A stretch of DNA of 64,000 bases from Myxococcales bacterium (GTDB lineage Bacteria; Lernaellota; Lernaellaia; Lernaellales; Lernaellaceae): assembly GCA_012517325.1 (NCBI GenBank), contig JAAYVF010000085.1:75673-139672 (forward strand). Direction: 5' to 3'. Of the stretch, positions 4,079-57,754 are shown in pieces. A program made the translations under genes and the position numbers. How positions within the stretch are numbered: position 1 is the first letter of the stretch; each line of letters starts with the position of its first letter. The notes beneath the pieces are model-generated. The model saw nothing but the letters and a program-made list of their open reading frames with translations. It did no database searches and was not told where the DNA came from.

Positions 4079-4243
4079 CTCCACCGTCGCCGAAACGCGA
4101 CATTCTATTGACGATAACAACGATCCGGCGCCTTTTCTAAGATTTTTTCCGTTTTGTCTAGATTAACCGTCTTCGATAGTTGCTTGGCGACCGCCGCCTT
4201 GTTAGCATGAATAAGTACCTTCTCCGGCGGTAACGAAAAGCGG

Positions 4244-5599: not shown

Positions 5600-6137
5600 G
5601 GTTTACCGGGATTTTTTCTCAATTTCCGACAAATTCAGTGAGACTTGCGATTGATAAAAACTCGATTTGAACGGCACCTGCCGAGCGCCGAACCGGGTTA
5701 CCCAAAACCGGCGATCTGGAAAAGTCCAGGTAAATCAAGGGCCAATATAAGAAATAAACCATCCTTGGATACGAAATTTACCGGCGGAAATGCTTGACAC
5801 CGGAAAAATGATCCGCGTAGAATAAACGAAGGTTGGCTTTGGCGCCCTAGAGGGAGGACGCCAGAAAGTAGAAGGGGACTTTTTTAAGATCTCAGGTTCC
5901 CTGTCGGGTAAATCGGCTTAACGTGAGGATACGGTTCACGATCCTAGCAGGAAACGTGCGCCGTAATTGATCGTTGAATCGTTATCCGTTGCAGGGGGCA
6001 TGACGATCCGCCACTTTTTGCATTTAAACGTGGTCATAACACGTAGGCGGATCGTGATGGGATTGTGAACGGTTGGGCGTCGCTACTCATCCTTGTCGAA
6101 TCAGCCTTGCGACGTCGCACGAAGAAAAGAGGATCTG

Positions 6138-6975
6138 GATGGCAGATCGGTTTAGCAAGCGGAACCGCTTTTTCCTGAAGGCGGGACTGCCGCTGGTTTT
6201 GCTGATGGCTTGCGCCTTCGCGGTCTGGGCCGCTCCGGCGCAAACACCGGACGAGGACGAACCGCCGGCCGAAGATTCGACCCCCGCCCCGTCGCCGACC
6301 CCGCCGCCGTCGCCGACTCCGGCGCCGACTCCGCCCCAGCCTCTGCCGCCGCCGCCGCCGAACGCGACACCGACGCCGATGCCGGCCGCCGAAGCGACCC
6401 CGGCCCCCGCGCCGGCCGCCGAAGCGACCCCGGCCCCCGCACCGGCCGCGCAGACCGAAGTGAAGGTCGAGCGCCTGAACGCGGAACAAATGAACCAGTT
6501 CGAGGAGAGCTTGGTCGACCTGCGCGAACGGATCATGAAAAGCAAGGCGCGGCTGATGCAGCTTCGCGAACAGCTCATGCTCGGCTCGGTTTCGATCATC
6601 AGCCTGAAGATCAATCACAACCACGAGGTGGGCGGCACCTTCAAAATGGAGTCGCTCAGCTACACCCTCGACGGTTTCGAAATTTACTCCGGGGTCAGCA
6701 CGCCGGAAAACGATCTGGAGAAACTGGGCAAGTTCCCGGTCTACGAAGGCAGCCTGCTGCCCGGCGATCACCTGCTGGTGGTCGACATGATTTTCCGCGG
6801 GCGCGGCTATGGCATTTTCAGCTACCTGAATCAATATCTGTTCAAGGTCAAGGCGCGTTATTTGTTTACGGTGGCCGAGGGCGATGTGGTCAACCTAGAC
6901 GTCGTCAGTTACGACGAAGGCAGCTTCCTGACCAGCCTGAAGGATCGCCTGCGCGTCAAGTTCGAAAAGAAATAG
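6138..6975 (+). CDS. Membrane-anchored Pro/Ala/Thr-rich coiled-coil protein, first gene of the Glt-like cluster
   Basis: N-terminal TM/signal (LPLVLLMACAFAVWA), PSPTPPPSPTPAPTPP and a duplicated EATPAPAPAA repeat, a coiled-coil segment, and a beta-rich C-terminal domain. Confidence 0.6.
6387..6446 (+). repeat. 30-bp in-frame tandem repeat (x2) encoding AAEATPAPAP
   Basis: gccgccgaagcgaccccggcccccgcgccggcc is followed immediately by a near-identical copy with one substitution. Confidence 0.8.
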
Positions 6976-6976
6976 A

Positions 6977-9145
6977 GTGAGGCCTAGCGTGCACCGTTCA
7001 TTGGTCGTCGCCTTCGCGCTCGTTTTGGTTCTGGGAATGACGGTGGGGTCATCCGCCAAGGATGAGGGTGGCCCTCTGGTCGATCACCTGAATCAATTGA
7101 ACGTGAAAATCGAGCAACTGCAAAACGAAGTCGCCGACTTGGAAACGAATTTCGGCCGGGAAGTCGACGAGCGCGAACGCCTGATGCTGCAGCGCAGTTT
7201 CGTCGAAGGGCGCGAATTTTTCTACGAGTTGCACGATTACCGGGGCGCTTCCGAGGTCTTTTACGGCATCGTCAACCATCCGTTGGCCTCCTCGCTCCCC
7301 AATTACAACGCGGCGATCTTCTACCTCGCCGATTCGCTTTTCCAAAGCGGCTATTATCCCGAAGCCAAGTCCCAGTACGAGCGGCTGATTCAAAAAGGCC
7401 CGTCCGACTACTATGCCATGAGCCTGATGCGGCTGATCGAAATCGCCGTGGTGCAGCGCAATTATTCCGAGGCCGAACGGCTCTATTCGATCATGCTCTC
7501 GAAATTCCCCGAGGGCGAGGACGGCAGCCTGGGCCGGTACATCATCGGCAAGTCCTATTACGAGCGGGGCGAAACCGCCAAGGCCATCGAAGTCTTCGAT
7601 TCGATCTCCGAGGAAGGATCCTTCCACGCCACCGCGCAGTATTACGCCGCGGTCTTGTTCATCAAACAGAAGAATTTCCAGGAAGCCGTCAATCGGTTGC
7701 GCCGCCTGAAGAAAGAGCTCAAGCACGACGTGGCGAACAAAAAAGCGATTTTCGCCCTGACCCACCTTGCGCTCGCCCGGATTTACTACGAGATGAACGA
7801 CTTCCCGCAGGCGATGGCCAACTATTCCGCCGTCCCCGAGGACTATCAGGATTACCCGGAGGCCTTGTACGAATCGATCTGGGTGTTCATCACCCGGAAC
7901 GATTACCTGCTTAAAGCCATTGAAGACGAACGGGACAGCTACGAAAACATCCTGTTCGATTTCGCCTCGTTCCGCGAAGCGGTGGATTCGCAGGATGACC
8001 AGGAAAGCCTGTCTGAAGTTGTCGCCGAATCCGACAAATTGCAGGCCGATCTCGATGAAATGAAGGGCATGTTCGACGAAGTCGACAGCAGCCTGGCTCG
8101 GTTGCAGGAAGAGGCGATCGGCAGTTTCAACAAACTCGTCCAGGCCGCCCCCAACAGCCCGTTGGTGGCCGACGCCGAAATCCTGGTCGGCAACATCTAT
8201 TCGCAGGTCGAGGACTTCAAAACCGCCGATCAATGGTTCAAACGCCTGAAGCAGAAATACGAAGACTTCTATGCCAGCATCGAGGCCGCGCAGCCGCGGC
8301 TGACCGGCGCCGATTACGTCGGCGTGGTCGCCTCGGCGTCCAGCTCGTTGAGCGACGGTTCGCCGATGTCGCAAGCTTCGTTGCGGGGCCTTCCCGAGGA
8401 AATCGCTTTCTGGCTGGCGGTCGATCCGGACGTCCGGAAAATTTTCGTCCTGTACGACGCGGCGAACAACGAGCGGCAAAACGTCGGCAAAATGCGCGAA
8501 ATGATCGGCGACATCGAAGTGAAACTCCGCGAGCTGGAAGTCGGCGGCGAATATCCGTTCTACCGCGAGGCCAATCGCCGCAGCTTGCAGTACCGTTCCG
8601 AAATCGAAAGCTTCCAGGTCGAATTGCTCAATCTGCGCAACGAAGCCGGGCAGTCGCCGGACGAGGCGGTGAGGAATCACGTCCAATCCGGCGTTAGCGG
8701 CCAGGAAGGCGTGTTGAGCAACCTCCAAAGCCGGCTCGGCTCCCTCAATGTGAAAATCGACGCCAAAAAGCAGGAACGGCTGAACTACTTCCGCCAGGAA
8801 TTGGCGGTTTTACGGCAACCGCTCGACGAATACGACCGGGCCTCCAATGCCCTGATGGCCAGTTCCGGCGGCACCTTGGCCACGGTGGCCGCCGCCGAAA
8901 TGGCCGATATCGAACGGACGGTGGCCGAGTACGTGCAAAAAGCCGATCTGGGCATTATCGACGTGGCGTGGCGCTCGACGCGCGGCTCCTCGCGGGAAAT
9001 CCGCAAGTTGCAGCACCAAATGGAAGAAGAACTGCACCAGCTACAGCGTTCGCAAAGCCCGCAGGAAAGCGCTCCGGCGCCCGCGGATGGCGAAAAGTCT
9101 AATCCGACGCCGCCCGCGCCGTCCGGCGGCGGGAGCGGGTCCTGA
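6977..9145 (+). CDS. Secreted TPR-repeat / coiled-coil protein (GltD/GltE-like periplasmic scaffold)
   Basis: Signal peptide, long coiled coils flanking TPR-like helical repeats, Pro-rich C-terminus. GTG start at 6977. Confidence 0.6.
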   Translation: MRPSVHRSLVVAFALVLVLGMTVGSSAKDEGGPLVDHLNQLNVKIEQLQNEVADLETNFGREVDERERLMLQRSFVEGREFFYELHDYRGASEVFYGIVNHPLASSLPNYNAAIFYLADSLFQSGYYPEAKSQYERLIQKGPSDYYAMSLMRLIEIAVVQRNYSEAERLYSIMLSKFPEGEDGSLGRYIIGKSYYERGETAKAIEVFDSISEEGSFHATAQYYAAVLFIKQKNFQEAVNRLRRLKKELKHDVANKKAIFALTHLALARIYYEMNDFPQAMANYSAVPEDYQDYPEALYESIWVFITRNDYLLKAIEDERDSYENILFDFASFREAVDSQDDQESLSEVVAESDKLQADLDEMKGMFDEVDSSLARLQEEAIGSFNKLVQAAPNSPLVADAEILVGNIYSQVEDFKTADQWFKRLKQKYEDFYASIEAAQPRLTGADYVGVVASASSSLSDGSPMSQASLRGLPEEIAFWLAVDPDVRKIFVLYDAANNERQNVGKMREMIGDIEVKLRELEVGGEYPFYREANRRSLQYRSEIESFQVELLNLRNEAGQSPDEAVRNHVQSGVSGQEGVLSNLQSRLGSLNVKIDAKKQERLNYFRQELAVLRQPLDEYDRASNALMASSGGTLATVAAAEMADIERTVAEYVQKADLGIIDVAWRSTRGSSREIRKLQHQMEEELHQLQRSQSPQESAPAPADGEKSNPTPPAPSGGGSGS

Positions 9146-9146
9146 G

Positions 9147-12100
9147 ATGACGAGGATGAAGCCCATGAAGGCGTGGATGCCCTACCGGCCGTGGATGATC
9201 TCGTTGCTCATCGCGGTTTGTCTGCTCGTCGGCGACGTCGCGCCGGCGGTCATGGCCCAGCAGGATGAGTCCAAAACTCCGCCGCCGGCCAGCCAGCCGA
9301 ATGCCGCGATTCCCGATACCGTGCCGGGAGTGCAGGCGGCGATCGAGCAACTGGAAAAGCAGATCGCCGATCTGGAAAGCGAAGCCGACAAGCTGGTCAG
9401 CGTCAACGATCAGGAAAAACGGCAGGCGATCCGCAAGCAGATCAAGACCTTGCGTTTTCAGATCAAGATTCTTCAAAACCGCATGGATCAATTGCAGCAG
9501 ACCGAATCGCAGGCCGGCGCCATCGCGGTCCGCGAAAAGTACCGTGAGAAAATTCGCGCTTACGAAGCGCAAAAAGCCGCCGTGCGGCGGGAAATCATCG
9601 CCCAGTTCGAAGCCAATCTGGCCCGCAATCCCAATAGCCGGGTCGCCCCCGACATTCTCTGGCGACTCGCCAACCTTTATTTCGAAGAGGCCCACGCCAA
9701 TTACCTCGAAGCCTGGGATCGCTACGAAAAAGAAGCCGACCAGCTCTACCACCAAGGAGCGACCGACGTCGTTCCGGAAGAGCCCAAGCGCAACTACGAG
9801 CGTTCGGTCGAAATTCTCGGCCGCATTCTGAAGGATTACCCGGCCTACGATCAAAAAGACCAGGTGTACTACCTGATGGCCTACTGCCTGCAGGAATCGA
9901 ACGAGGACGACCGTGCCCTCCAGATTTACGATCGGTTGATCAAGGACACTCCCGAATCCGCCTACGTGCCGGAAGCCTACGTGCGGATGGGCGAGATTTA
10001 TTTCGAGCGCGATCAATTCGACAAGGCCATCGAGCGCTACCTGCAACTGATGAAGTACCCGACCTCCAAGTTTTACGACAAAGCCCTCTACAAGCTCGGC
10101 TGGTCGTATTACAAAATGAACGACTACGAGAACTCGGTGAAGTATTTCACCCAGGTTCTCGAGTACTACAAGAACCGTTCGGTGACTTCCCACAAGCGCG
10201 GCAAGGTGGACGACCTGTTGCAGGAATCCATCGATTACATCGCCATCAGCTTCACCGAATCCGAGGGGCAGCAGGGCGGCGCGGCCGCGCTGGCCTTCAT
10301 GAAAAAACTCAACGATCAGGATCTGGGCCGTCAAATCCTGATGAAGGTCGGCGAGGTTTACGACGAACGGACCGACTACGAGCCGGCCCGGCAGGCGTAC
10401 GACGCCTACCTCAAGGCCTTCCCGCTCGGGCCCGAGGTTCCGGATATCTACAGCAAAATCGCGCAAATGTACGAAAAAGAATCGCGTTTTGAGGACGCGG
10501 TCGAGGTTTATACGATGATCGGCAAGGCGCTGGGCCCCGACAGCGAATGGGCGCGGGTCAACGGCCAGCGCGCCGCCGATCTCGAGCGCGCCGCTAAACT
10601 GCGCCAAACTTCCATCATGGCGGCGGCGACCTTCCATCACGAAAAAGCGCAAAACACCTCCGGCGCCGAGCAGCAGGCGCATTACCAAAAGGCCATCGAG
10701 AATTATCAGCTCTACCTGGCCAACTACCCGGACTCCGACAACGCCTACGAATCGGCGTTCAACCTCGCCGAATGCTTCATGGAACTGCAGCAGTACCCGC
10801 AGGCGGCCGATCAATATCAAAAAGTGATCGACATCAAGAAAGACAAGGAACTGTGGACCAACGCCTTGTTCAATAAAGCGAAGGCCTTCGAACTCGAAAT
10901 GGAAAAAGAGGGCGGCCTGCCCAACAAAGAGGCGATCGAGGCGCGCGACAAGAAAATCAGCGAAGGCAAGGGGTCCGAGCAGCCCAAGGGCGTGGCGATC
11001 AAACCGCAACCGCTCAGCGCCACCGCCGGCAAATGGATCGCGGCCCTGGAGCAGCACGTCAACAATCTGCCGGAATCCGATAAAAGTCCGGCCATGCTCT
11101 ACAAAATCGGCGAAATCTATTACCTTTACGGCGATTTCGACAACGCCCGCAAATACTTCGAGGACGTGTTTGCCAAGTATCCGAACAACGAAGTCGTCGC
11201 CTTCGCGACCTACTACTACATCGAATCCTACAAACAGCGCGACGATTACCAAGGCATCATCGCCGCGACCCAGCGCCTGCCCAAGAGCGGCAACACCGGC
11301 ATTTCGGCCGAACAGGTGCAAAGCCTGACCGCCGGCGCAACCTTCAAGATCGCCGAACAAAAACTGCGCGACGCCACCAGCACGACTCCGGTGGACACCA
11401 AGCTCGTGCAGGAAGCGATCAACGAATACGAAAAAGGCATCAAGGAAAATCCGGGCGACAAACTGGCCGACGTCGCGATGCTCAACATCGCGGTCGCCTA
11501 CGAAAATCACCTGAAAGACCTGGTGCGCGCCAACGACGCTTATCTCCGCCTGGCGCGCGATTTCCCCAAAAGCACCCATGCTCCCGAAGCCTTGATGCGC
11601 GCCGCCTACAACTACCAGGTTCTGATCGAATTCGATCAGGCCGCCGGCGCCTACGAAAAATTTTACCAGCAATTCCCCGATAACAAGGACGCCGGTAACG
11701 CCCTGTTCAATGCCGCCGCCCTGCAAGAGGACTCCAAACGGTATTCCTCGGCCAGCCCGCTGTTCGAAACCTACCTGTCCAAGTTCGCCACCGAAACCGA
11801 CGCGGCGGAAGTCGCGTTCACCATCGCCCAGATCCACGAAAAAATGGGTGACAAGTCCGGCGCCGTCGCCGCCTACGAGAATTACGCCAAGCGGGGCAAC
11901 GACGATGCCGCGCGGATGAGCGAAGCCTACTTCCGTTGGGGCTCCATCGAGGACGAGTCCGGACGTTGGAGCGAGGCGGAAAAGCGCTATTTGCAGGCCG
12001 TGGCCGTGTTCGTCAAGGCGCACGAAATCGACGCGAACGTCGAGGCGCGTTACGCTTCCGAGGCGCAGTTCCGCATCGCGATGCACGCCTACGACAGCTA

Positions 12101-12659
12101 CAAGGCCATGGTCTTCACCGGCAACCTGAACAAAGACACCAACATCCTGAAGGAAAAGGCCGAGGCCTTCAAAAAACTGAAAGAGTACTTCGAACAGACC
12201 GTGACCTTCGGCAATTACACCTGGGCCACCGCTTCCTTGCACATGATCGGCGTGATCAACCAGGATTTCGCCGAGGCGCTGCTCAATGCCCCCACGCCCA
12301 AGGATCTGCCGCAGGAACAGCAAGACGAATACCTGTTCAAACTCGAGGAAATCGCCTTCCCCGTGAAGAACCGCGCCCTCGAAGCCTACAAGCAGAACGT
12401 GCAAAAAGGCATCAACGAGCGGCTCATCAACGAATGGATCGTGAAAAGCTTCCTCGAACTGAAAAAGCTCGAACCGGAAACCAAGGAACCGAAATTCGAA
12501 AAGGTCACCGGGCGGGAAACGCCTTCGTTCGCCTTCGCGGATATCGATCTGACCCTGCCGGTCATCCAAACGCCGGCGCCGACCACGCCGCCGGGAGGTA
12601 CGCCTCCGGCCGCTCCCGCCGCGCCACCGGCCGGGGGGAAAAAGGAGGTGGAGGAATGA
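9147..12659 (+). CDS. Large secreted TPR-repeat protein (about 1,170 aa; GltD/AgmU-like)
   Basis: Signal peptide (MISLLIAVCLLVGDVAPAVMA), N-terminal coiled coil, then more than 15 TPR-like repeats with W/Y/F-A-YY motifs. Pro-rich tail. The ATG at 9147 follows the stop of the previous gene. Confidence 0.65.
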   Translation: MTRMKPMKAWMPYRPWMISLLIAVCLLVGDVAPAVMAQQDESKTPPPASQPNAAIPDTVPGVQAAIEQLEKQIADLESEADKLVSVNDQEKRQAIRKQIKTLRFQIKILQNRMDQLQQTESQAGAIAVREKYREKIRAYEAQKAAVRREIIAQFEANLARNPNSRVAPDILWRLANLYFEEAHANYLEAWDRYEKEADQLYHQGATDVVPEEPKRNYERSVEILGRILKDYPAYDQKDQVYYLMAYCLQESNEDDRALQIYDRLIKDTPESAYVPEAYVRMGEIYFERDQFDKAIERYLQLMKYPTSKFYDKALYKLGWSYYKMNDYENSVKYFTQVLEYYKNRSVTSHKRGKVDDLLQESIDYIAISFTESEGQQGGAAALAFMKKLNDQDLGRQILMKVGEVYDERTDYEPARQAYDAYLKAFPLGPEVPDIYSKIAQMYEKESRFEDAVEVYTMIGKALGPDSEWARVNGQRAADLERAAKLRQTSIMAAATFHHEKAQNTSGAEQQAHYQKAIENYQLYLANYPDSDNAYESAFNLAECFMELQQYPQAADQYQKVIDIKKDKELWTNALFNKAKAFELEMEKEGGLPNKEAIEARDKKISEGKGSEQPKGVAIKPQPLSATAGKWIAALEQHVNNLPESDKSPAMLYKIGEIYYLYGDFDNARKYFEDVFAKYPNNEVVAFATYYYIESYKQRDDYQGIIAATQRLPKSGNTGISAEQVQSLTAGATFKIAEQKLRDATSTTPVDTKLVQEAINEYEKGIKENPGDKLADVAMLNIAVAYENHLKDLVRANDAYLRLARDFPKSTHAPEALMRAAYNYQVLIEFDQAAGAYEKFYQQFPDNKDAGNALFNAAALQEDSKRYSSASPLFETYLSKFATETDAAEVAFTIAQIHEKMGDKSGAVAAYENYAKRGNDDAARMSEAYFRWGSIEDESGRWSEAEKRYLQAVAVFVKAHEIDANVEARYASEAQFRIAMHAYDSYKAMVFTGNLNKDTNILKEKAEAFKKLKEYFEQTVTFGNYTWATASLHMIGVINQDFAEALLNAPTPKDLPQEQQDEYLFKLEEIAFPVKNRALEAYKQNVQKGINERLINEWIVKSFLELKKLEPETKEPKFEKVTGRETPSFAFADIDLTLPVIQTPAPTTPPGGTPPAAPAAPPAGGKKEVEE

Positions 12660-13774
12660 GGCGCCGACTGGTCATCCTGATTTCCGTGCTGGTGGTCGTT
12701 GTCTTCGCGGTCGCCTGCGGTTCGGCTCCGCCCAAACCGACCGAAAAGCCCAAGACTTCCCAGGCGCCGATGCAGACGACTCCGGATTTGGTGGGCCCCG
12801 AGGCGGCCCGGACCTACCAGGATCAAGCCAACAACGCCGCGAAAAACGGCGATTGGGCTCGCGCCGAGGAATTGTATTCCAAAGTCATCAAGGCCGATCC
12901 GCGCGTGGCGGAGGCGTATTACAACCGCGGCGTCGCGCGGATCAGACTCGGCAACAACGAAAGCGGCGCCAAGGATATGAAAATGGCGCTGACGCTCCGG
13001 CCCAACCTCGAAGCCGCGTTCGTCAATCTCGGCGCGGCCTATCTGGCCACCGGCCGGTTGAGCGCCGCCTTGCAGCAGTTCAACGCGGTTGTTTCCAAGC
13101 AACCGAACAACCTCGAAGCCAAGAACAATTTGGGCGCCGTTTACATGCGGATGGGCCAATACGATCGCGCCGAAACCATCTTCAAAGAGATCATTCGGCA
13201 GGATTACAAATTCGTGCCCGCCCATGTGAATATGGGATTGGTCTATTTTTACAAGGATTTGCCTCAATTGGCCGAGCGGGTTTTCAAGAACGCCGAAAAG
13301 CTGGACCCGAAAAACTCGGATTTGACCGCGAATTACGGTTACATGCTGCTGAAAATCGGCGAGTTGAGCCTGGCCAAGGTCCAATTCGAAAAATCTTTGA
13401 GAATCAATCCTAACAATGCCTCTGCCTTGACCAATATCGGAGCCTTGGAGATTATGCTTCGGCAGTTCGATAAGGCTCAGGCGCATCTGGATCGCGCGAC
13501 ACAAATCGATCCTTCCAATCCAAACACCTGGAGCAACCTCGGAGTGGCTCGCCGGGCGAGAGGAGATAACGACGGGGCAGAAGCGGCCTACAAAAAGGCG
13601 ATCGAAATCGATCCCAACTTGGCCGAGGCGTACTTAAATTACGGAATTTTCCTGGAAGAAGTGAAACAGGATCGCAAAGGCGCGATCGCGCAATATTCCA
13701 GGTACTGGCAAGCCGCCAAGAACCAATCGGGGACGAATCCGCGGGTTCCCGATTGGATCGACGCGCTTAAATAA
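12656..13774 (+). CDS. TPR-repeat lipoprotein
   Basis: Lipobox ...VFAVACGS; canonical TPRs (AEAYYNRGVARIRLGN, LEAKNNLGAVYMRMGQYDRA, ...). ATGA start/stop overlap with the upstream gene. Confidence 0.7.
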   Translation: MRRRLVILISVLVVVVFAVACGSAPPKPTEKPKTSQAPMQTTPDLVGPEAARTYQDQANNAAKNGDWARAEELYSKVIKADPRVAEAYYNRGVARIRLGNNESGAKDMKMALTLRPNLEAAFVNLGAAYLATGRLSAALQQFNAVVSKQPNNLEAKNNLGAVYMRMGQYDRAETIFKEIIRQDYKFVPAHVNMGLVYFYKDLPQLAERVFKNAEKLDPKNSDLTANYGYMLLKIGELSLAKVQFEKSLRINPNNASALTNIGALEIMLRQFDKAQAHLDRATQIDPSNPNTWSNLGVARRARGDNDGAEAAYKKAIEIDPNLAEAYLNYGIFLEEVKQDRKGAIAQYSRYWQAAKNQSGTNPRVPDWIDALK

Positions 13775-13792
13775 AGCGAAAGGGGTAACGCG

Positions 13793-14038
13793 ATGAAACG
13801 GCACCAGTGGGAAATCGTCATTGCCTTGGCGATTTTGGTCGGTTCGTTGTTGTGCCTCGCCGGAGTAGCCGCCGCGCAAAACTATATGGAACTCGATCCG
13901 ATCGTGGTCGAGGGCCAGATTCAGCGGCCGGAAGCGTCGTATATCATCCAGCGGGCGAATCTCGATTTCGGAATTATCGCGAAAAAACGGAGCTTCATTT
14001 ACAAGATCGAGGAATCGATCGATGGAGCGCCTTTCTGA
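13793..14038 (+). CDS. Small secreted protein (81 aa), position-equivalent to GltF-type small periplasmic components
   Basis: Signal peptide MKRHQWEIVIALAILVGSLLCLAGVAAA. Sits between the TPR lipoprotein and the TolQ-like gene. Confidence 0.4.
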   Translation: MKRHQWEIVIALAILVGSLLCLAGVAAAQNYMELDPIVVEGQIQRPEASYIIQRANLDFGIIAKKRSFIYKIEESIDGAPF

Positions 14039-14136
14039 TTTCGATTGAGCGATCATTTCCGGAAGGACGGGAATGAAGCCGCGAAGCCACGGAGCGCAAG
14101 GAGGAAGAGCACGGTTTTAATTGTCGTCCATCGGTT

Positions 14137-14808
14137 TTGACGAGGAGGAAAACGCGGTTGGGTACATGGTTCTATGAGATGTTCGACAAGGGTGGTTCGG
14201 TCATGTACGTCATCGCGGTTTTCAGCGTGTTGGCCATGGCGATTTCCATCGAGCGAGCGTTTTACATTCTGTTCCGCTACAACATCGATGGGCCGGCCTT
14301 CATGAAGAAGTTGCAGAAGCTGGTGGAGGCGCGCAATTACGACCGGGCGATTCAACTTTGCAACGCCGCTCCGAACGCGGCTTTATCGCGCGTGTTGCGG
14401 GCCGGTTTGTTGAAGGCCGGTCGCGATCAACGCGAGGTCCAGAACGCCGTGGACGAATCGGCGCTCGAGCTGTTGCCGCTGTTGCAGAAGCGCACCGGCT
14501 ACCTCCAGGTGATCGCCAACGTGTCCACGTTGTTGGGTTTGCTCGGCACGATCATCGGGATCATCGATTCGTTTCGCGCCGTCGCCCAGGTGGAAGCGAG
14601 CCAGCGGCAGCAGGCTCTGATGAAAGGTATTTACGTGGCGTTGTACACCACCGCCTTCGGTTTGATGGTCGCGGTGCCGACCCTGGTCGCACATGCCGTG
14701 ATCGACGCCCGGACGGTGAAGATTATCGATGAAATCGATGAATTTTCCGTCAAATTGATCAATTTGTTGGGCGCGATGAAAACCGAAAGCGACAAAAAGG
14801 TCCGCTGA
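14137..14808 (+). CDS. MotA/TolQ/ExbB-family proton channel (AglR-like)
   Basis: Three-TM topology and the conserved C-terminal LYTTAFGLMVAVPTLVAHAVI segment of the MotA/TolQ/ExbB family. True start is uncertain (TTG at 14137/14158 or ATG at 14179). Confidence 0.8.
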   Translation: MTRRKTRLGTWFYEMFDKGGSVMYVIAVFSVLAMAISIERAFYILFRYNIDGPAFMKKLQKLVEARNYDRAIQLCNAAPNAALSRVLRAGLLKAGRDQREVQNAVDESALELLPLLQKRTGYLQVIANVSTLLGLLGTIIGIIDSFRAVAQVEASQRQQALMKGIYVALYTTAFGLMVAVPTLVAHAVIDARTVKIIDEIDEFSVKLINLLGAMKTESDKKVR

Positions 14809-14841
14809 ACGGCGGACGCGGTGGCATGAGGGAGTAAACAC

Positions 14842-15426
14842 ATGGCCGGCCGACCCAGCAAGCGATTGCATTTGCAGCGGGCTCAGGGTGAGATCAACAT
14901 CCTGCCGGTCATGAATGTGATGGCGATTTTGGTGCCTTTTTTGTTGTTGTTCGCTTCGTTCATCAAGCTGACGATCATCGACACCGCCCTGCCGGCGGTG
15001 TCCGGGCCCGGCAGCAAGTACGTCGATGACGCCGAGGCATCGCCGACGCCGCCGCCGATGGAAAAGAAGCTCAATCTGACGGTCGCCATCATGAAGGAAG
15101 GGTTCATGATCGCCGGGATCGGCGGCATTCTCGACATCAACGGCGAGAATAAACCGGACCTCGTCGAGGTCGCGCCCCGGACGATCATCGCCAAGAAGCC
15201 GGACGGCGAATACGATTACGACAAATTGAAAGAAATTCTCATTCGAATCAAAGAGGCTTTTCCAGGACAGAACACGATCATTCTGTTGCCCGAGCCGTCG
15301 GTTCTATACCGGGACATCGTCAAGTTAATGGATGTCGCGCGGACTTATAAGAAGACGACTCCGGACGGAAAAGAAACCGAGGAATTGCTTTTTCCGGCGC
15401 CGGTGCTGGCCGCGCGCCTGATTTAG
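14842..15426 (+). CDS. ExbD/TolR-family protein (AglQ/AglS-like), with insertion
   Basis: N-terminal INILPVMNVMAILVPFLLLFA single-TM motif and a periplasmic domain. Longer than a canonical ExbD. Confidence 0.7.
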   Translation: MAGRPSKRLHLQRAQGEINILPVMNVMAILVPFLLLFASFIKLTIIDTALPAVSGPGSKYVDDAEASPTPPPMEKKLNLTVAIMKEGFMIAGIGGILDINGENKPDLVEVAPRTIIAKKPDGEYDYDKLKEILIRIKEAFPGQNTIILLPEPSVLYRDIVKLMDVARTYKKTTPDGKETEELLFPAPVLAARLI

Positions 15427-15448
15427 TCGCGAGTAGACGGGAGTAGGA

Positions 15449-15961
15449 ATGGCTTTTGCCGCCACCAAACGCAAACGGATCGCCCTGAATCGCCGGCTGG
15501 CCGAGCCGCTGAAGATCACCAGTCTGGTCGACTTGCTGACGATCCTGTTGGTGTTTCTGCTGCAAAGCTATTCGTCCGTCGAATTGACCGTGACGCCTTC
15601 GGAGGATTTGCATTTGCCGGTCAGCATCAATACCAAGGCGCCGATCGAATCGGTGCAATTGCTGCTGTCGACGCAGGCGATCGTCGTCGAAGGCAAGGCC
15701 GTCGCCCGGGTGACGCCCGATTTCGAAATCGAAGACGTCCCGGCGAAGAGCTTGGAAATCCCGGTGGTTTATACCGCGCTCAAGAAGCAGGCGGAAATCG
15801 AGAAACAGCGCGCTCGTCGCTTTGGTCGCGAATTCAACGGCAACATCACCATCCAGGCGCACGAGACACTGCCCTATAAATTGATTGCCAAGGCCATTTT
15901 TACGGCCGGTCGCGCTGAGTTCGGAAACATCAAGTTCATGGCGTTTAAAGCTGAGGATTGA
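15449..15961 (+). CDS. ExbD/TolR-family protein (second paralog)
   Basis: ITSLVDLLTILLVFLL TM motif and an ExbD-like periplasmic domain (ITIQAHETLPYKLIAKAI). Confidence 0.7.
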   Translation: MAFAATKRKRIALNRRLAEPLKITSLVDLLTILLVFLLQSYSSVELTVTPSEDLHLPVSINTKAPIESVQLLLSTQAIVVEGKAVARVTPDFEIEDVPAKSLEIPVVYTALKKQAEIEKQRARRFGREFNGNITIQAHETLPYKLIAKAIFTAGRAEFGNIKFMAFKAED

Positions 15962-16000
15962 TCGTGTTGCCGCGATCAGGTTGCGCGGGGAGAAAGGAAA

Positions 16001-17299
16001 TTGGCGATGCCCGGTGAAACTGCGGCTCGGGTTTTAAAAGTCGGCTTGGTCCAGGACGGCAAGCTCATCGAAGATAGCGTCCTGGGCAGCAGGGAAGGTC
16101 TGACCATCGGCCTGGACCCGACGAATAAATTTTCGATTGCGGAACCTGCGGCGCCTCGTCGGCACATGCTGATCGAATATACCCAACACGGGTATAAGCT
16201 CAATCTGCTACCCGAGATGAAGGGCCGGATGCTGATCGACGACCGGACGATCGAACTGGCCGAATTGATCTCGTCGGGTAAAGCGGTCAAGTCGCCCAAG
16301 GGCGGCTACGAAATGCCGCTCGTCGCCTCCAGCAAAGGCAAGATCGCCATCGGCGGCAGCACGATCCTCTTCCAACTCGTGCCGCCTCCGCCGCCGCCGG
16401 CGATGATGAAACTGCCCAAGGAACTGAAGGCCAGTTTCTTCCGCAACGTCGACATGTTCTTTTTAATCGTGTTGGTGATCAGCGCGGTGTTGCACGCCGC
16501 GATGATTTATTACCTGGAAAACGTCGATTACAACGAAGAAGAGGCGATGAAGGTCGCCACCGAACGGTTCGTCCAGATCGTCGAGGAAGACATCATCGTG
16601 CCCGAGGAGGAAACCCAGGCCGAGGATGAGGAAGGCGGCAAGAAGGGCGGTGGCGGCGGCGGTGGCGGTGGCGGCGGCCAGCAAGCCGTCGAGAACAAGG
16701 GCATCATCGCCGTCATCGGCCGGCTCAGCACGCAGAGCGGCGCCGTGGCCGACTTGCTGTCCGAATCCGGGTTGGGCGGCGATCTGACCAACGCCCTGAA
16801 CAGCATCGGCGGCGTCAAGGTCGGCAAGCCGGGCGACATCGGCATCGGCGGCGGCACCAAAGGATCCGGTTCCGGTCCGGGCGGCGGTTCGGGCGTCGGC
16901 ATCGGCGACATCGGCAATGCCGGCCGGGGCGGCTCCGTCGGCACCGGCGACCGTTCCGAGCGGAAAATCACCGCCAAGCTGTCGACGGCCGACGGCGGTG
17001 TATCGGGCAAAATCGACGCTTCCAAAGTTCGTGGGTACATTCGCAGCCAATTGGGCGGCGTTCGCCATTGTTATGAAATGCAGTTGAAGTCGACTCCGAC
17101 CTTGGAAGGCAAGGTAAAGGTAATGTTCACCATCGGGTCGTCAGGGGACGTAGTCAGTTGCTCGGTCGCACAAAACACCATGGGCAACACGCTGGTCGGC
17201 GATTGCGTTTGTCGCCGCGTTCAGCGCTGGCGTTTCCCGCCGCCGGACGAGGGCACGGTGACGGTGTCGTATACCTTTATCTTCCAGCCCGCGGAATAA
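16001..17299 (+). CDS. GltG/AgmX-like protein: FHA-like N-terminus, TM helix, Gly-rich linker, AgmX/PglI-type (TonB_C-like) Cys-containing C-terminal domain
   Basis: N-terminus has an FHA-like TIGLDPTNKFSI...PRRHMLIEY segment. PPPPPP stretch. TM helix FFLIVLVISAVLHAAMIYY. GGGGGGGGGGG run. C-terminal segment GYIRSQLGGVRHCYEMQL...VSCSV...VGDCVCRRVQRWRFPPP resembles the AgmX/PglI C-terminal domain. Confidence 0.6.
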   Translation: MAMPGETAARVLKVGLVQDGKLIEDSVLGSREGLTIGLDPTNKFSIAEPAAPRRHMLIEYTQHGYKLNLLPEMKGRMLIDDRTIELAELISSGKAVKSPKGGYEMPLVASSKGKIAIGGSTILFQLVPPPPPPAMMKLPKELKASFFRNVDMFFLIVLVISAVLHAAMIYYLENVDYNEEEAMKVATERFVQIVEEDIIVPEEETQAEDEEGGKKGGGGGGGGGGGQQAVENKGIIAVIGRLSTQSGAVADLLSESGLGGDLTNALNSIGGVKVGKPGDIGIGGGTKGSGSGPGGGSGVGIGDIGNAGRGGSVGTGDRSERKITAKLSTADGGVSGKIDASKVRGYIRSQLGGVRHCYEMQLKSTPTLEGKVKVMFTIGSSGDVVSCSVAQNTMGNTLVGDCVCRRVQRWRFPPPDEGTVTVSYTFIFQPAE

Positions 17300-17311
17300 G
17301 GAGGTGGGGTC

Positions 17312-17866
17312 ATGAAAAGATGGACCGTTTTCTTGATCGCCTGCACTCTGCTGACGTGCTTCGCCGCGTCAGGGTGGGCGCAGGATCGGTCGGACCAGAC
17401 AAGTAAAATCGAGCTGGCGAAACAGTACCTGGCATGGATGAAGGCCCAAACCGACCAGTTGGATCAAGAATTGCTGCAAGCGCGACGCGAGCAGAATTCC
17501 AAAAAGATCAACTGCATCGAGGACCGACTGGCCGCGCTCAAGGAAATCATGGGCGAAACGGACGCCATGAATCAACGGTTGCGCGCGTTTTCCATGCAGC
17601 AGCGGCTGACGGAAGCAAACAAGGTTTTCACCAAATTGGCCAACAATCAGCGGTTGGCGGAACAGATCATCAATCTGGTGAAAGATTGCTTCAAGAACAT
17701 CAACGTCGAGGGCGGGTTCGTGGAAACCCTCGAGGAATGGCTGGGCGAGCCGACCGGCGAAGATCGTCCGGGCTATGATCCGACGGAATCGCAACCTCGT
17801 CCGGGAGAACCCGAACCGGTGCCGAATGAGTTCACGCCCGGTCCGGTAAGCGAGGAAGAAGAATAG
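17312..17866 (+). CDS. Secreted coiled-coil protein with Pro-rich tail
   Basis: Signal peptide MKRWTVFLIACTLLTCFAASGWA, heptad-rich middle, C-terminal P/E-rich region. Confidence 0.5.
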   Translation: MKRWTVFLIACTLLTCFAASGWAQDRSDQTSKIELAKQYLAWMKAQTDQLDQELLQARREQNSKKINCIEDRLAALKEIMGETDAMNQRLRAFSMQQRLTEANKVFTKLANNQRLAEQIINLVKDCFKNINVEGGFVETLEEWLGEPTGEDRPGYDPTESQPRPGEPEPVPNEFTPGPVSEEEE

Positions 17867-17931
17867 TAACTGAGAAAACTCAATAATAATGATTATATTT
17901 GAGTTGGCATGCTAATTATCTGAGGAATTAA

Positions 17932-19158: not shown

Positions 19159-19165
19159 GCTGCCG

Positions 19166-20044: not shown

Positions 20045-20056
20045 GAGAAACGGCGC

Positions 20057-23184: not shown

Positions 23185-23191
23185 GCGTTTT

Positions 23192-40122: not shown

Positions 40123-40276
40123 CGGCGGCTCCGTCAACAGTCTGTTGAAAAAGGCCGTCCTGGCCTTTTTCAACCGCGCTCAACAAAAAGCGTGGTTTTT
40201 CTTTCGCTTCATTTTCGGCAACTTCGGAAGTTGCCGAAAATGGCGATCCATCCCTGGATCGCACGCCGGGTGTTTT

Positions 40277-46583: not shown

Positions 46584-46665
46584 GATACTCCGTATCGGGT
46601 GGCATCGTTCGGCGCCATGATGGTCCGGCGCCGCGGGCACTGTCAAGTAAAACGGCGGTTCCGGG

Positions 46666-57669: not shown

Positions 57670-57754
57670 ATTCCTCTCTCCTTTCTATCTCAGATTTTTT
57701 TCAAAACCTGACAAATCTGGATAGTCGCTATCGGCGTGTTATATTTCTATGTTG

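What the first reader, a model, noticed from the sequence alone, without database searches (positions are those of the whole stretch)
6138..17299. Agl-Glt-like (gliding-motility-type) trans-envelope machine cluster
A single co-directional cluster contains exactly the component classes of the Myxococcus xanthus gliding motor and its G1 scaffold. These are one MotA/TolQ/ExbB-like channel (14137-14808), two TolR/ExbD-like proteins (14842-15426, 15449-15961), three consecutive secreted TPR proteins including a lipoprotein (6977-13774), a small secreted protein in the position of GltF (13793-14038), and a GltG/AgmX-like protein with the Cys-containing AgmX/PglI-type C-terminal domain (16001-17299). 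An MglA-like GTPase is encoded at 56.1 kb. The AglRQS-like trio is not followed by TonB or by Tol-Pal partners (TolA/TolB/Pal), which argues against ordinary TonB or Tol systems. In an organism with anaerobe markers (Nfn, AOR) this would be a gliding- or Nfs-like envelope conveyor outside classical myxobacteria, and its cargo is unknown.
Basis: partly seen in the sequence, partly recalled or inferred. Interest (0 to 1): 0.75.

Follow-up and report, generated by a model that had tools for sequence, protein, structure and literature searches.

The report
Glt-like envelope motor joined to polysaccharide export
The gene cluster is real and related to the Myxococcus gliding machine, but it matches a non-motility paralogue of that machine (G4) and sits in one gene array with a polysaccharide export pore, so it more likely handles a secreted sugar polymer than moves the cell.

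Summary
There is one MotA/TolQ/ExbB channel, two ExbD/TolR proteins, three secreted TPR proteins, a small secreted protein, and a 432-aa protein that passes the AgmX/PglI C-terminal model (101 bits, cutoff 40).

The window most likely comes from a relative of Candidatus Lernaella (phylum Lernaellota). The cluster is not the gliding machine. It fails the GltG, GltE, GltC and GltJ equivalog cutoffs, and no gliding-specific "Group A" genes were found among the window ORFs annotated.

It is collinear, gene by gene, with the Myxococcus xanthus G4 paralogous cluster (MXAN_1923-1919, function unknown). The collinearity includes the two genes that follow G4 in M. xanthus, wzpB and wzaB, which form the outer-membrane translocon for biosurfactant polysaccharide.

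In the window the array runs without a break into an outer-membrane barrel, a class-3 OPX, a Wzc-type kinase and a Wzx/Wzy biosynthesis locus, about 31 kb in all. An OPX gene lies 1.8-2.9 kb downstream of the GltG-like gene in 18 of 20 informative loci from Lernaellota, Myxococcota and a gammaproteobacterial MAG.

Best reading: a proton-driven, TonB-like "core" Agl-Glt module coupled to polysaccharide export. It is a new member of a known kind and gives a testable lead.

The parts
5794..5823 (+). Promoter-like site (TTGACA-18-TAGAAT, 11 of 12 matches) in the 540-bp gap upstream of the first gene of the array
   Evidence: It is the only strong + strand match in 5400-24000. This is a consensus match only, and its function is not shown.
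6139..6975 (+). g1: secreted 278-aa protein. It has a signal peptide, a Pro/Ala-rich disordered linker, a long helix and a C-terminal beta-sandwich. It is the conserved first gene of G4-type clusters and has no Pfam family.
6977..9145 (+). g2: secreted 722-aa TPR protein in the GltC position
   Evidence: TPR Pfam families. GltC model NF033756 at 38 bits, far below the 450 cutoff. Weak match to the C-terminal part of MXAN_1923, E 1e-4. Conserved position in related loci.
9147..12659 (+). g3: secreted 1170-aa TPR protein, GltD-like. Orthologue-level match to the M. xanthus G4 protein MXAN_1922.
   Evidence: 28% identity over 1067 aa to MXAN_1922, E 5e-117. Same NCBIfam hit profile as MXAN_1922.
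12656..13774 (+). g4: 372-aa TPR lipoprotein, GltE-like
   Evidence: GltE model aligned over nearly its full length, 134 bits, below the 225 cutoff. MXAN_1921 E 2e-28. Lipobox FAVAC read from the sequence.
13793..14038 (+). g5: 81-aa secreted protein in the GltF position
   Evidence: 44% identity over 55 aa to MXAN_1920, E 1e-16. MXAN_1920 itself hits the CglF/GltF model weakly, 32.8 bits against a cutoff of 90. g5 has no direct family hit.
14137..14808 (+). g6: 223-aa MotA/TolQ/ExbB-type channel subunit, AglR-like in size and context
   Evidence: PF01618 94.4 bits. TolQ 64.7/221 and ExbB 41.7/206, both below cutoff. Equidistant from solved ExbB (37.7 bits) and TolQ (37.2 bits).
14842..15426 (+). 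g7: 194-aa ExbD/TolR-like subunit whose transmembrane Asp is replaced by Asn (PVMNVM)
   Evidence: PF02472 38.3 bits. The Asn is conserved in all 8 orthologues from Lernaellota-like and Myxococcota loci. Same length as Anaeromyxobacter AglS, 194 aa.
15449..15961 (+). g8: 170-aa ExbD/TolR-like subunit that keeps the transmembrane Asp (SLVDLL)
   Evidence: PF02472 33.2 bits. The Asp is conserved in all orthologues.
16001..17299 (+). g9: GltG-like TonB-family transducer. Domains in order: cytoplasmic FHA-fold domain, TM helix with an S-x3-H-x6-L motif, about 140 aa of disordered Gly-rich periplasmic linker, and a Cys-containing AgmX/PglI (TonB-CTD-like) domain.
17312..17866 (+). g10: 184-aa secreted, helix-rich protein with an acidic Pro-rich tail. 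Weak homologue of MXAN_1917.
   Evidence: No family hit above noise. MXAN_1917 E 1e-5. Same position in Lernaellota-like and M. xanthus loci and, with weak matches (E about 1e-5), in three Polyangiaceae loci.
17932..19158 (+). g11: 408-aa outer-membrane beta-barrel, Wzp-like partner of the OPX
   Evidence: Pfam BBP2_2 24.8 bits, cutoff 23.7. 20% identity over 377 aa to WzpB/MXAN_1916, E 1e-11. Ends in the aromatic ...QALF. Lies immediately upstream of the OPX, as in M. xanthus.
19163..20044 (+). g12: 293-aa class-3-type OPX (Poly_export + SLBB + SLBB_2, no C-terminal Wza helix)
   Evidence: Pfam. Best solved relative is M. xanthus sWzaB, 9N9A, 96.7 bits. WzaB E 9e-20. Has no lipobox and no C-terminal Phe-Phe, unlike WzaB.
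20057..22261 (+). g13: 734-aa PCP-2a/Wzc-type co-polymerase with a BY-kinase and a C-terminal Tyr cluster
   Evidence: Wzz, GNVR and AAA_31 domains; TIGR01007 202 bits, cutoff 108. YRYYYYYYHY read from the translation.
22258..37097 (+). Co-directional polysaccharide biosynthesis genes: epimerase (22258-23184), Wzy_C (23192-24562), TPR membrane protein (24559-25923), GT2+methyltransferase (25910-27568), 4xGT4 ORF (27436-32196), Wzx+methyltransferase (32193-34529), Wzy_C (34526-36046), GT1 (36024-37097)
   Evidence: The Lernaella locus L001 has the same order up to the end of the locus, in the GT2+methyltransferase gene.
3659..5599 (.). Receiver-only response regulator (3659-4120, minus strand) and membrane histidine kinase (4244-5599, plus strand) just upstream. 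Possible regulators; the link to the array is not shown.
   Evidence: Conservation upstream of related loci could not be assessed.

Best explanation
The region encodes a G4-type Agl-Glt 'core' envelope complex built into a Wzx/Wzy polysaccharide locus.

Shown by sequence and homology:
- A TolQ/ExbB-like channel (g6) with a heteromeric pair of TolR/ExbD-like plugs. One keeps the protonatable Asp (g8) and one carries Asn (g7).
- A TonB/TolA-like transducer (g9) with an FHA fold on the cytoplasmic side, an S-x3-H TM helix, a long disordered periplasmic linker and a TonB-CTD-like head.
- Periplasmic or OM-associated TPR scaffolds homologous to GltD, GltE and (weakly) GltC, and a small GltF-position protein.
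- Directly after these, an OM beta-barrel homologous to WzpB, a class-3 OPX homologous to WzaB, a Wzc-type kinase, and the glycosyltransferase, flippase and polymerase genes.

Inferred, by analogy with the published AlphaFold model of Agl-Glt and with TolQRA and TonB:
- Proton flow through a g6(5):g7:g8 stator drives conformational work in g9.
- The linker of g9 wraps the GltD-like pillar (g3). The pillar, with g4 and g5, connects through the GltC-like protein (g2) to the only OM barrel encoded in the array, the Wzp/OPX translocon.

The work is therefore spent on the polysaccharide. It either gates or ratchets export through the translocon, or moves and anchors the export site and the nascent polymer as Agl-Nfs does for the spore coat. 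The cargo is the polymer made by the same array, not the cell body.
For: Family assignments.

Collinear full-length homology to M. xanthus MXAN_1923-1915: g3~1922 E 5e-117; g9~1919 E 1e-55; g4~1921 E 2e-28; g5~1920 E 1e-16; g11~WzpB E 1e-11; g12~WzaB E 9e-20.

The M. xanthus G4 paralogues score against the G1 equivalog models almost exactly as the window proteins do.

An OPX gene lies 1.8-2.9 kb downstream of the GltG-like gene in 18 of 20 informative loci (Lernaellota-like, Myxococcota, one gammaproteobacterial MAG), plus one more context. An FHA-extended, G1/Nfs-like cluster has no OPX and serves as a single contrast case.

The array has gaps of 98 bp or less, one strong promoter-like site upstream and no intergenic terminator-like sites.

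g9 model: FHA + TM + disordered linker + TonB-CTD. The TonB/TolA-like S-x3-H-x6-L TM motif is shared with MXAN_1919.

Literature:
- AglR binds GltG and NfsG, and Agl-Nfs acts on the Exo polysaccharide exported by a Wza-type system (PMC3858216).
- Predicted structural model of AglR5QS-GltG-GltD-GltC-OM barrels (PMC11761067).
- The core complex is 'of unknown function' and not sufficient for motility (PMC3169522).
Against: Everything rests on gene order and homology. There are no expression or interaction data, and the organism is uncultured.

In M. xanthus a polar insertion in MXAN_1922 gave no appreciable gliding or twitching defect (PMC3169522). BPS-pathway mutants, by contrast, show swarm phenotypes (PMC7310880). 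G4 may therefore be dispensable for BPS export, or wzpB and wzaB may have their own promoter. BPS itself was not measured.

Published work on the WzaB-WzpB-WzcB translocon describes it without any Glt-like partner (PMC12819527).

Two informative loci (L006, L012) lack an OPX next to the GltG-like gene, and many Myxococcota loci lack the motor genes in the cluster.

The GltC assignment of g2 is weak. g12 lacks the lipid anchor and the C-terminal Phe-Phe that WzaB uses to bind WzpB.
Confidence: 0.6

Rival explanations
1. It is a genuine gliding-motility (focal-adhesion) machine, as in M. xanthus Agl-Glt. It moves the cell over surfaces under the control of the MglA-like GTPase.
For: The motor, GltC/D/E/F/G-position genes and an MglA homologue (200 bits) are all in the window.
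Against: All G1/G2 equivalog cutoffs are missed. The cluster is collinear with the non-motility G4 paralogue. No Group A homologues (GltA/B/H/I/J/K, CglB) turned up among the window ORFs annotated. Luciano et al. showed that core genes are not sufficient for motility. g9 lacks the extra N-terminal FHA domain that binds GltI in GltG. The MglA-like protein lacks the catalytic Gln and an adjacent MglB, and lies among replication and repair genes.
Confidence: 0.06
2. It is an Nfs-like surface conveyor that acts only after export. The polymer leaves through the OPX/barrel unaided, and the motor then drags or wraps it around the cell to build a compact capsule-like layer.
For: The only experimentally characterised non-motility relative, Agl-Nfs, works this way with the Exo (Wza-type) system (PMC3858216). 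The same genetic link to an OPX is seen here.
Against: Nfs contains GltA/B-type OM barrels (NfsA/B) that are missing here. The only OM barrel in the array is the Wzp-like export porin. The polymer linked to G4 in M. xanthus (BPS) is released from the cell, not retained on its surface (PMC7310880).
Confidence: 0.2
3. It is an ordinary TonB-ExbBD or Tol-like system (uptake or envelope integrity) that merely happens to lie beside a polysaccharide locus.
For: g9 passes the TonB C-terminal domain thresholds. ExbB-ExbD-ExbD-TonB is a common operon type. g3 gives YbgF/CpoB-type TPR hits.
Against: TolQ, ExbB and ExbD equivalog cutoffs are missed by wide margins. There is no TonB-dependent receptor, TolA, TolB or Pal in the array. 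The YbgF score comes from 7 repeated TPR stretches, and MXAN_1922 gives the same hits. The adjacency to an OPX is conserved across phyla at a fixed distance.
Confidence: 0.07
4. It is a trans-envelope signalling device. The FHA domain of g9 and the upstream kinase and regulator sense the state of the export apparatus and regulate polymer synthesis, without doing mechanical work on the polymer.
For: FHA fold in g9. A BY-kinase and a two-component pair lie nearby. M. xanthus G4 carries a cNMP-binding protein.
Against: The full stator with a conserved protonatable Asp, together with large periplasmic scaffolds, is retained in several lineages. In the GltG model the membrane-proximal FHA domain docks on the stator rather than signalling.
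Confidence: 0.05

Closest known systems
Myxococcus xanthus G4 cluster (MXAN_1923-1919) together with MXAN_1917, wzpB (MXAN_1916) and wzaB (MXAN_1915)
   Same: Same gene order and homology gene by gene: GltC-like, GltD-like, GltE-like, small protein, GltG-like, small secreted protein, OM barrel, class-3 OPX. The scores against the G1 equivalog models are nearly identical.
   Different: The window carries the AglRQS-like motor inside the cluster and has g1 upstream; the fetched M. xanthus locus is cut inside MXAN_1923, so a g1 homologue there could not be checked. It lacks the cNMP-binding gene MXAN_1918. It continues directly into the PCP and the whole Wzx/Wzy pathway, whereas the M. xanthus BPS genes lie 1 Mbp away. 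The window OPX is longer (293 vs 204 aa), is not a lipoprotein and has no C-terminal Phe-Phe. The function of G4 is unknown.
Agl-Glt 'core complex' of Luciano et al. 2011 (gltC, D, E, G + aglR, Q, S in one locus in Gamma- and Betaproteobacteria, Geobacter and Fibrobacter)
   Same: The same seven component classes sit in a single co-directional locus, with extra genes that have no G1/G2 counterpart. It is found outside the gliding myxobacteria.
   Different: It occurs in a phylum not covered in 2011 (Lernaellota). I could not fetch the 2011 genomes, so I cannot say whether those loci also carry an OPX.
Agl-Nfs spore-coat assembly machine with the Exo (Wza/Wzc-type) export system of M. xanthus
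   Same: A Glt paralogue powered by a TolQR-like motor and functionally tied to a polysaccharide exported by a class-3 OPX plus barrel.
   Different: Nfs has GltA/B-like OM barrels and is encoded apart from exo. Here the export genes are in the same array and no GltA/B-like genes were seen.
Agl-Glt gliding (bacterial focal adhesion) machine, G1+G2+M1
   Same: Homologous motor, GltG-type transducer (FHA-TM-linker-TonB-CTD), GltD/E scaffolds and a GltF-position protein.
   Different: Fails every equivalog cutoff. The Group A parts (GltA/B/H/I/J/K, CglB) are missing from the window. g9 has one FHA domain rather than two.
TonB-ExbB-ExbD and TolQ-TolR-TolA energy transducers
   Same: Channel of the MotA/TolQ/ExbB family and plugs of the ExbD/TolR family. 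Transducer with an S-x3-H TM helix, an extended linker and a TonB/TolA-like C-terminal domain.
   Different: Two different plug subunits, one with Asn in place of the Asp. The transducer has a cytoplasmic FHA domain. The partners are TPR scaffolds and a polysaccharide translocon rather than TonB-dependent receptors or TolB-Pal.
Composite class-3 OPX / Wzp beta-barrel polysaccharide translocon (EpsY/EpsX, ExoA/ExoB, WzaB/WzpB)
   Same: A short OPX without the Wza C-terminal helix, encoded next to a barrel of about 400 aa, followed by a PCP.
   Different: None of the OPX papers I searched mention Glt-like or TonB-like neighbours. Here such neighbours are conserved upstream.

Membership tests
Agl-Glt core complex (Luciano 2011) | One MotA/TolQ/ExbB-type and two TolR/ExbD-type genes (aglR, Q, S classes) in the locus | tested here: met
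   PF01618 94.4 bits; PF02472 38.3 and 33.2 bits
Agl-Glt core complex (Luciano 2011) | GltG-class transmembrane protein with a TonB-like, AgmX/PglI-type C-terminus | tested here: met
   NF033768 101.1 bits vs cutoff 40; FHA-TM-linker-TonB-CTD model
Agl-Glt core complex (Luciano 2011) | GltD-, GltE- and GltC-class TPR proteins in the same locus | tested here: met
   GltD class: E 5e-117 to MXAN_1922. GltE class: E 2e-28 to MXAN_1921 and a full-length alignment to the GltE model. GltC class: supported only weakly (38 bits; E 1e-4 to part of MXAN_1923) and by position
Agl-Glt core complex (Luciano 2011) | The TolQ-like protein falls in the AglR clade rather than the TolQ, ExbB or MotA clades | not testable with these tools
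   No AglR reference sequence could be obtained. Indirect evidence only: the TolQ and ExbB cutoffs are failed, and g6 is equidistant from solved ExbB and TolQ
M. xanthus G4-type cluster with wzpB and wzaB | Collinear homologues of MXAN_1923, 1922, 1921, 1920, 1919, 1917, 1916 and 1915 | tested here: met
   All eight are matched in order on L026 (CP017174.1)
Agl-Glt gliding machine (G1/G2/M1 orthologues) | Proteins reach the NCBIfam equivalog cutoffs for GltG, GltE, GltC and GltJ | tested here: not met
   153/650, 134/225, 38/450, 27/450
Agl-Glt gliding machine (G1/G2/M1 orthologues) | Group A genes present (gltA, B, H, I, J, K; cglB adhesin) | tested here: inconclusive
   None appeared among the annotated ORFs of the 64-kb window or in locus L001. 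The rest of the genome cannot be searched.
TonB-ExbB-ExbD system | ExbB and ExbD equivalogs, and a TonB-dependent receptor as partner | tested here: not met
   ExbB 41.7/206.2; ExbD_2 16.5/123.45. No Plug or TonB_dep_Rec protein in the array
TonB-ExbB-ExbD system | TonB C-terminal domain | tested here: met
Tol-Pal system | TolQ equivalog with TolA, TolB and Pal neighbours | tested here: not met
   TolQ 64.7/221. No TolA, TolB or Pal in the array. The YbgF hits of g3 are 7 TPR stretches, and CpoB scores 49.5/383.
Class-3 OPX + Wzp composite translocon | OPX with Poly_export and SLBB domains but no C-terminal OM-spanning helix | tested here: met
   Only Poly_export, SLBB and SLBB_2 are found, and the protein ends with SLBB_2. 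Best solved match is sWzaB, 9N9A.
Class-3 OPX + Wzp composite translocon | Adjacent Wzp-type OM beta-barrel | tested here: met
   BBP2_2 24.8 vs 23.7 (marginal); E 1e-11 over 377 aa to WzpB; stop lies 5 bp before the OPX start. The strand number was not modelled.
Class-3 OPX + Wzp composite translocon | N-terminal lipidation and C-terminal Phe-Phe of the OPX (as in WzaB) | tested here: not met
   Signal peptide ...AAVWA/AETD without Cys; C-terminus ...VVKRRIL (vs PMC12819527)
XrtA/PEP-CTERM exopolysaccharide system | EpsE/pepcterm_export, EpsF/G and TIGR03016 barrel equivalogs, plus an exosortase | tested here: not met
   159.5/262.65, 151.3/180, 178/422.75 and 26.1/90.85. No exosortase among the annotated ORFs.

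The most novel reading that the evidence does not exclude
The ancestral and still widespread job of the Agl-Glt 'core' may be to couple proton-motive force, through a TonB-like transducer and TPR scaffolds, directly to a class-3 OPX/Wzp outer-membrane translocon. That would be an energised step in Wzx/Wzy polysaccharide secretion. The M. xanthus G4 cluster would then be the unrecognised partner of WzpB/WzaB in BPS export, and gliding and spore-coat machines would be later derivatives.
Probability: 0.3. Interest if true: 0.8.

Novelty: new member of a known kind. Interest (0 to 1): 0.55.

Why it matters
Two questions have been open since 2011: what the stand-alone Agl-Glt core complex does, and what the M. 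xanthus G4 cluster does. How class-3 OPX/porin translocons are opened and powered is also unsettled.

This window, with about 20 related loci from at least three lineages, shows the core genes fused into one array with such a translocon. In the Lernaellota loci the array continues into a polysaccharide biosynthesis pathway.

The collinear arrangement in M. xanthus was described as an 'orphan-like' wzaB and an uncharacterised G4. That gives a direct, genetically tractable test: do G4 mutants alter BPS secretion?

The result also supports the published idea that gliding and spore-coat machines derive from a capsule-type system. It extends the family to the uncultured phylum Lernaellota.

Tried and rejected
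- A 20-sequence GltG alignment was too diverse for the locus search. A 12-sequence alignment worked.
- The cluster-member look-up gave no organism names.
- The afdb50 fold library was unavailable, so no M. xanthus AlphaFold match could be sought.
- g11 has no sequence match in the PDB.
- Sun et al. 2011 (PMC3088616) is not held. I therefore could not check whether M. xanthus AglS also has Asn in place of the TM Asp.
- No AglR, AglQ or AglS reference sequences could be obtained, so the proposed phylogeny of the TolQ-like protein was not done.
- Rfam found no riboswitch in the 540-bp leader.
- A PEP-CTERM/exosortase system was considered and rejected: scores are below the cutoffs and no exosortase was found.
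- A horizontally acquired island was considered because GC is 0.55-0.60 here against 0.65-0.72 downstream. This was rejected as the main cause. GC3 differs only slightly (0.71-0.84 vs 0.82-0.91), while GC1 and GC2 differ strongly. The difference therefore reflects amino-acid composition.
- Literature searches for 'G4 cluster' and for MXAN_1917-1924 found no paper linking G4 to wzaB or wzpB. Agrebi et al. 2015 (Nat Rev Microbiol 13:318) is not held and could not be checked.

Full report
**What is in the sequence.** Between 6.1 and 22.3 kb all long ORFs with coding-like composition lie on the + strand. Gaps are 98 bp or less and several stop/start codons overlap. The genes in order are:
- g1, 6139-6975: secreted, 278 aa.
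- g2, 6977-9145: TPR, 722 aa.
- g3, 9147-12659: TPR, 1170 aa.
- g4, 12656-13774: TPR lipoprotein.
- g5, 13793-14038: secreted, 81 aa.
- g6, 14137-14808: MotA/TolQ/ExbB family.
- g7, 14842-15426, and g8, 15449-15961: both ExbD/TolR family.
- g9, 16001-17299: 432 aa.
- g10, 17312-17866: secreted, 184 aa.
- g11, 17932-19158: outer-membrane barrel.
- g12, 19163-20044: OPX.
- g13, 20057-22261: Wzc-type PCP with BY-kinase.

The array then continues co-directionally to about 37.1 kb. It encodes an epimerase, two Wzy_C proteins, a TPR membrane protein, a GT2-methyltransferase, a 1586-aa ORF with four GT4 modules, a Wzx-methyltransferase and a GT1. One strong promoter-like site (5794-5823) lies in the 540-bp gap upstream of g1. 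No terminator-like site falls between genes. Rfam finds nothing in the leader.

**Check of the observation.** The 432-aa protein hits NF033768 (AgmX/PglI C-terminal domain) at 101 bits against a cutoff of 40. The TolQ-like and TolR-like proteins miss the TolQ (64.7/221), ExbB (41.7/206) and ExbD equivalog cutoffs. g6 is equally distant from solved ExbB and TolQ chains. One statement needs correcting. The trio is followed by a TonB-family protein, because g9 also passes the generic TonB C-terminal thresholds. The MglA-like gene at 56091-56675 is real, with 200 bits to M. xanthus MglA.

**Where the window comes from.** The closest named relative of g9 is from Candidatus Lernaella stagnicola (69% identity), in phylum Lernaellota, formerly FEN-1099. 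The Lernaella contig carries the same 14 genes in the same order, followed by Wzy_C, TPR and GT2-methyltransferase genes. The paper that named the phylum does not mention gliding, TonB or exopolysaccharide for it (PMC9324843). The window probably belongs to another member of this phylum.

**What it is related to.** Luciano et al. 2011 split the M. xanthus gliding genes into two groups. Group A genes are restricted to Myxococcales and Bdellovibrionales (gltA, B, F, H, I, J, K). Group B is a 'core complex' (gltC, D, E, G plus aglR, Q, S). The core complex is found as a single locus in Gamma- and Betaproteobacteria, Geobacter and Fibrobacter. Its function is unknown and it is not sufficient for motility (PMC3169522; PMC3858216). 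The window cluster has exactly the core classes.

Against the NCBIfam equivalog models built on the true gliding proteins it fails everywhere: GltG 153/650, GltE 134/225, GltC 38/450, GltJ 27/450. As a calibration I scored the M. xanthus G4 paralogues against the same models. They behave almost identically:
- MXAN_1919: GltG 161, tail domain 107.
- MXAN_1921: GltE 111.
- MXAN_1922: the same YbgF, BamD and CpoB-type TPR hits as g3.

**Link to M. xanthus G4 and the BPS translocon.** Table S3 of Luciano et al. lists G4 as MXAN_1919 (447 aa), 1920 (91), 1921 (490, TPR), 1922 (1111, TPR) and 1923 (809). mglA and mglB are MXAN_1925 and 1926. MXAN_1915 and 1916 are WzaB and WzpB, the class-3 OPX and 18-stranded porin of the biosurfactant polysaccharide (BPS) pathway. 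Islam et al. called wzaB 'orphan-like' because it lies 1.016 Mbp from the other BPS genes (PMC7310880; PMC9603273).

To test this with sequence I took these steps:
1. I rebuilt the sWzaB sequence from the PDB alignment (9N9A).
2. I recovered the exact Myxococcus protein (P0194).
3. I fetched its locus, L026 (CP017174.1, 2.19-2.21 Mb).

In that locus nine genes are co-directional and tightly spaced: 809 aa (cut by the locus end), 1111, 495, 91, 447, 148 (cNMP-binding), 203, 421 (WzpB) and 204 aa (WzaB). The window proteins match them in the same order:

| Window gene | M. xanthus match | Identity / length | E-value |
|---|---|---|---|
| g3 | MXAN_1922 | 28% over 1067 aa | 5e-117 |
| g4 | MXAN_1921 | 26% over 356 aa | 2e-28 |
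| g5 | MXAN_1920 | 44% over 55 aa | 1e-16 |
| g9 | MXAN_1919 | 32% over 458 aa | 1e-55 |
| g10 | MXAN_1917 | 23% over 151 aa | 1e-5 |
| g11 | WzpB | 20% over 377 aa | 1e-11 |
| g12 | WzaB | 25% over 182 aa | 9e-20 |
| g2 | available part of MXAN_1923 | 22% over 115 aa | 1e-4 |

The window cluster is therefore a G4-type module. It differs in having the motor genes inside it, and the PCP and biosynthesis genes follow directly.

**Conservation of the link to export.** It returned 21 loci: Lernaellota-like MAGs, many Myxococcota MAGs (Polyangia, Sandaracinaceae and others) and one MAG labelled Gammaproteobacteria. I searched their ORFs with the window proteins. The order g1-g2-g3-g4-(g5)-(motor)-g9-(g10)-barrel-OPX recurs.

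Among 20 independent loci with about 3 kb or more of sequence downstream of the GltG-like gene, 18 have an OPX gene starting 1.8-2.9 kb after it. L006 and L012 do not. Two further contexts agree. One has no DNA available. The other also carries the motor and a PCP (L027). A cluster built around a longer, FHA-extended GltG-like protein has 266-aa and 294-aa genes upstream and no OPX. This is the pattern expected of G1/Nfs-type clusters, and it serves as a single contrast case. The motor genes are inside the cluster in the Lernaellota-like loci except L006, and in L009, L010, L013 and L027. They are absent from most Polyangia loci and from M. xanthus.

**Anatomy of the parts.**
- *g9 TM helix.* It carries S161-x3-H165-x6-L172. 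This motif is shared with MXAN_1919 and most homologues. From established knowledge of TonB and TolA, it corresponds to the SHLS face that contacts ExbB or TolQ.
- *g7 and g8.* The two ExbD-like proteins are not equivalent. The g8 family keeps the transmembrane Asp. The g7 family has Asn at that position in every orthologue, including those from Myxococcota. This fits a heterodimeric plug like the AglQ/AglS pair predicted inside an AglR pentamer. I could not check the M. xanthus residues themselves.
- *g1.* It founds a family of at least 1599 proteins without a Pfam model. Its fold is a generic beta-sandwich behind a long helix.
- *GltG-like family size.* g9 has 262 representatives at 50% identity with E of 1e-30 or better.

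**How it most likely works.** The parts list and its link to the translocon genes are shown. The assembly is inferred. By analogy with TolQ5R2-TolA and the AglR5QS-GltG model, g6 would form the proton channel, plugged by g7 and g8, and g9 would bind it through its TM helix and FHA domain. The disordered linker of g9 would cross the peptidoglycan and wrap the GltD-like pillar g3. g4 and g5 would stabilise this. The GltC-like g2 would dock onto an outer-membrane barrel.

In Glt and Nfs that barrel is GltA/B or NfsA/B. Here the only barrel encoded is the Wzp-like porin, with its OPX. I therefore commit to the reading that the motor's work is delivered to the polysaccharide translocon or to the nascent polymer. 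My confidence in this coupling is about 0.6. Whether it gates or ratchets export, or distributes and anchors the polymer after export as Agl-Nfs does, cannot be decided from sequence.

**Evidence against.**
- A polar insertion in MXAN_1922 had no appreciable motility phenotype. BPS was not measured.
- The recent mechanistic work on WzaB, WzpB and WzcB needs no Glt-like factor to explain assembly.
- g12 lacks the lipid anchor and the Phe-Phe motif used by WzaB.
- Two loci lack the OPX.
- The GltC assignment of g2 is weak.

**Rivals.**
- *A true gliding machine* is unlikely (0.06). The reasons are the failed equivalog cutoffs, the absence of Group A genes in the window, the single FHA domain, the kinship with G4, and the character of the MglA-like gene. 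That gene sits among dnaX, ybaB and recR, has no MglB next to it, and has Ser in place of the catalytic Gln (PGS for PGQ) and NMRD for NKRD.
- *An ordinary TonB or Tol system* beside an unrelated locus is unlikely (0.07), given the failed cutoffs, the missing partners and the conserved fixed-distance synteny.
- *A purely Nfs-like post-export conveyor* (0.2) and *a signalling device* (0.05) remain possible.

**Known or new.** The kind of system is known: the core complex, G4, and the published capsule-origin hypothesis of Agrebi et al. 2015. That paper is cited in PMC4546325 but is not held, so I could not check its content. Three things appear to be unreported in the texts I could search:
1. 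The presence of the system in Lernaellota.
2. The complete single-array form, with scaffold, motor, translocon, PCP and biosynthesis genes together.
3. The explicit, sequence-verified collinearity with M. xanthus G4-wzpB-wzaB, and its conservation across lineages.

I file it as a new member of a known kind, with a useful and testable functional lead.

**Limits.**
- I could not build a phylogeny of the TolQ-like protein.
- I could not search the rest of the genome.
- The 2011 Geobacter, gammaproteobacterial and Fibrobacter loci could not be fetched.
- The related loci were collected with a motif from g9, so they sample the G4-type subfamily only.
- The barrel's strand number and all protein-protein contacts are untested.

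Noticed in passing
window 56091-56675 (+): The MglA homologue (200 bits to M. xanthus MglA) has PGS where MglA has PGQ, so the catalytic Gln is missing. It also has NMRD for NKRD and GPAQVGKS for the P-loop. It sits after dnaX (53400-55085), ybaB (55097-55414) and recR (55417-56028), with no Roadblock/MglB gene beside it.
   Followed up: partly
L026 1-10615 (M. xanthus CP017174.1, 2186130-2206744, reversed): In M. xanthus, wzpB and wzaB are the last two genes of a nine-gene, tightly spaced, co-directional array. The array begins with the G4 genes and includes a cNMP-binding protein (148 aa). wzaB is called 'orphan-like' in the literature. By locus tags in Luciano's tables, mglA and mglB (MXAN_1925/1926) lie just beyond MXAN_1924.
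   Followed up: partly
window 14842-15426 versus 15449-15961, and their orthologues in L001, L004, L005, L007, L009, L010, L013: The two ExbD-like subunits are fixed in different states. One always has Asn and the other always has Asp at the transmembrane proton-binding position, in both Lernaellota-like and Myxococcota loci.
   Followed up: partly
window 6139-6975: g1 founds a large family (at least 1599 proteins at E 1e-5 or better, mostly Polyangiaceae) with no Pfam model. It has an invariant RG-x-GYG-x-FSYL-x-x-Y-x-F motif in a beta-sandwich.
   Followed up: partly
window 25910-34529 (+): Unusual fusions occur in the biosynthesis part: a GT2-methyltransferase (552 aa), a single 1586-aa ORF with four GT4 modules, and a Wzx-type flippase fused to a methyltransferase (778 aa). 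No initiating phosphoglycosyl transferase was seen in the window.
   Followed up: partly
window 37094-43626 (-): Three radical-SAM proteins lie next to a Wzt-like ABC ATPase with a Wzt_C carbohydrate-binding domain, on the strand opposite the polysaccharide array. A FecCD/ABC/periplasmic-binding-protein uptake system follows at 43851-46605.
   Followed up: no
window 53060-53321 (+): Large (Alu-domain-containing) bacterial SRP RNA, 149.9 bits (gathering score 60).
   Followed up: no
window 57340-58408 (-): Two small secreted proteins have very long Asp/Asn-rich low-complexity runs, and one ends in an Lcl_C domain. They lie in the lowest-GC part of the window (0.48-0.53).
   Followed up: no
window 4001-22000 versus 22001-48000: GC is 0.55-0.60 in the Glt-like/export part and 0.65-0.72 in the glycosyltransferase part. 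The difference lies mainly in codon positions 1 and 2 (amino-acid composition), not position 3, so it is weak evidence for recent transfer.
   Followed up: partly
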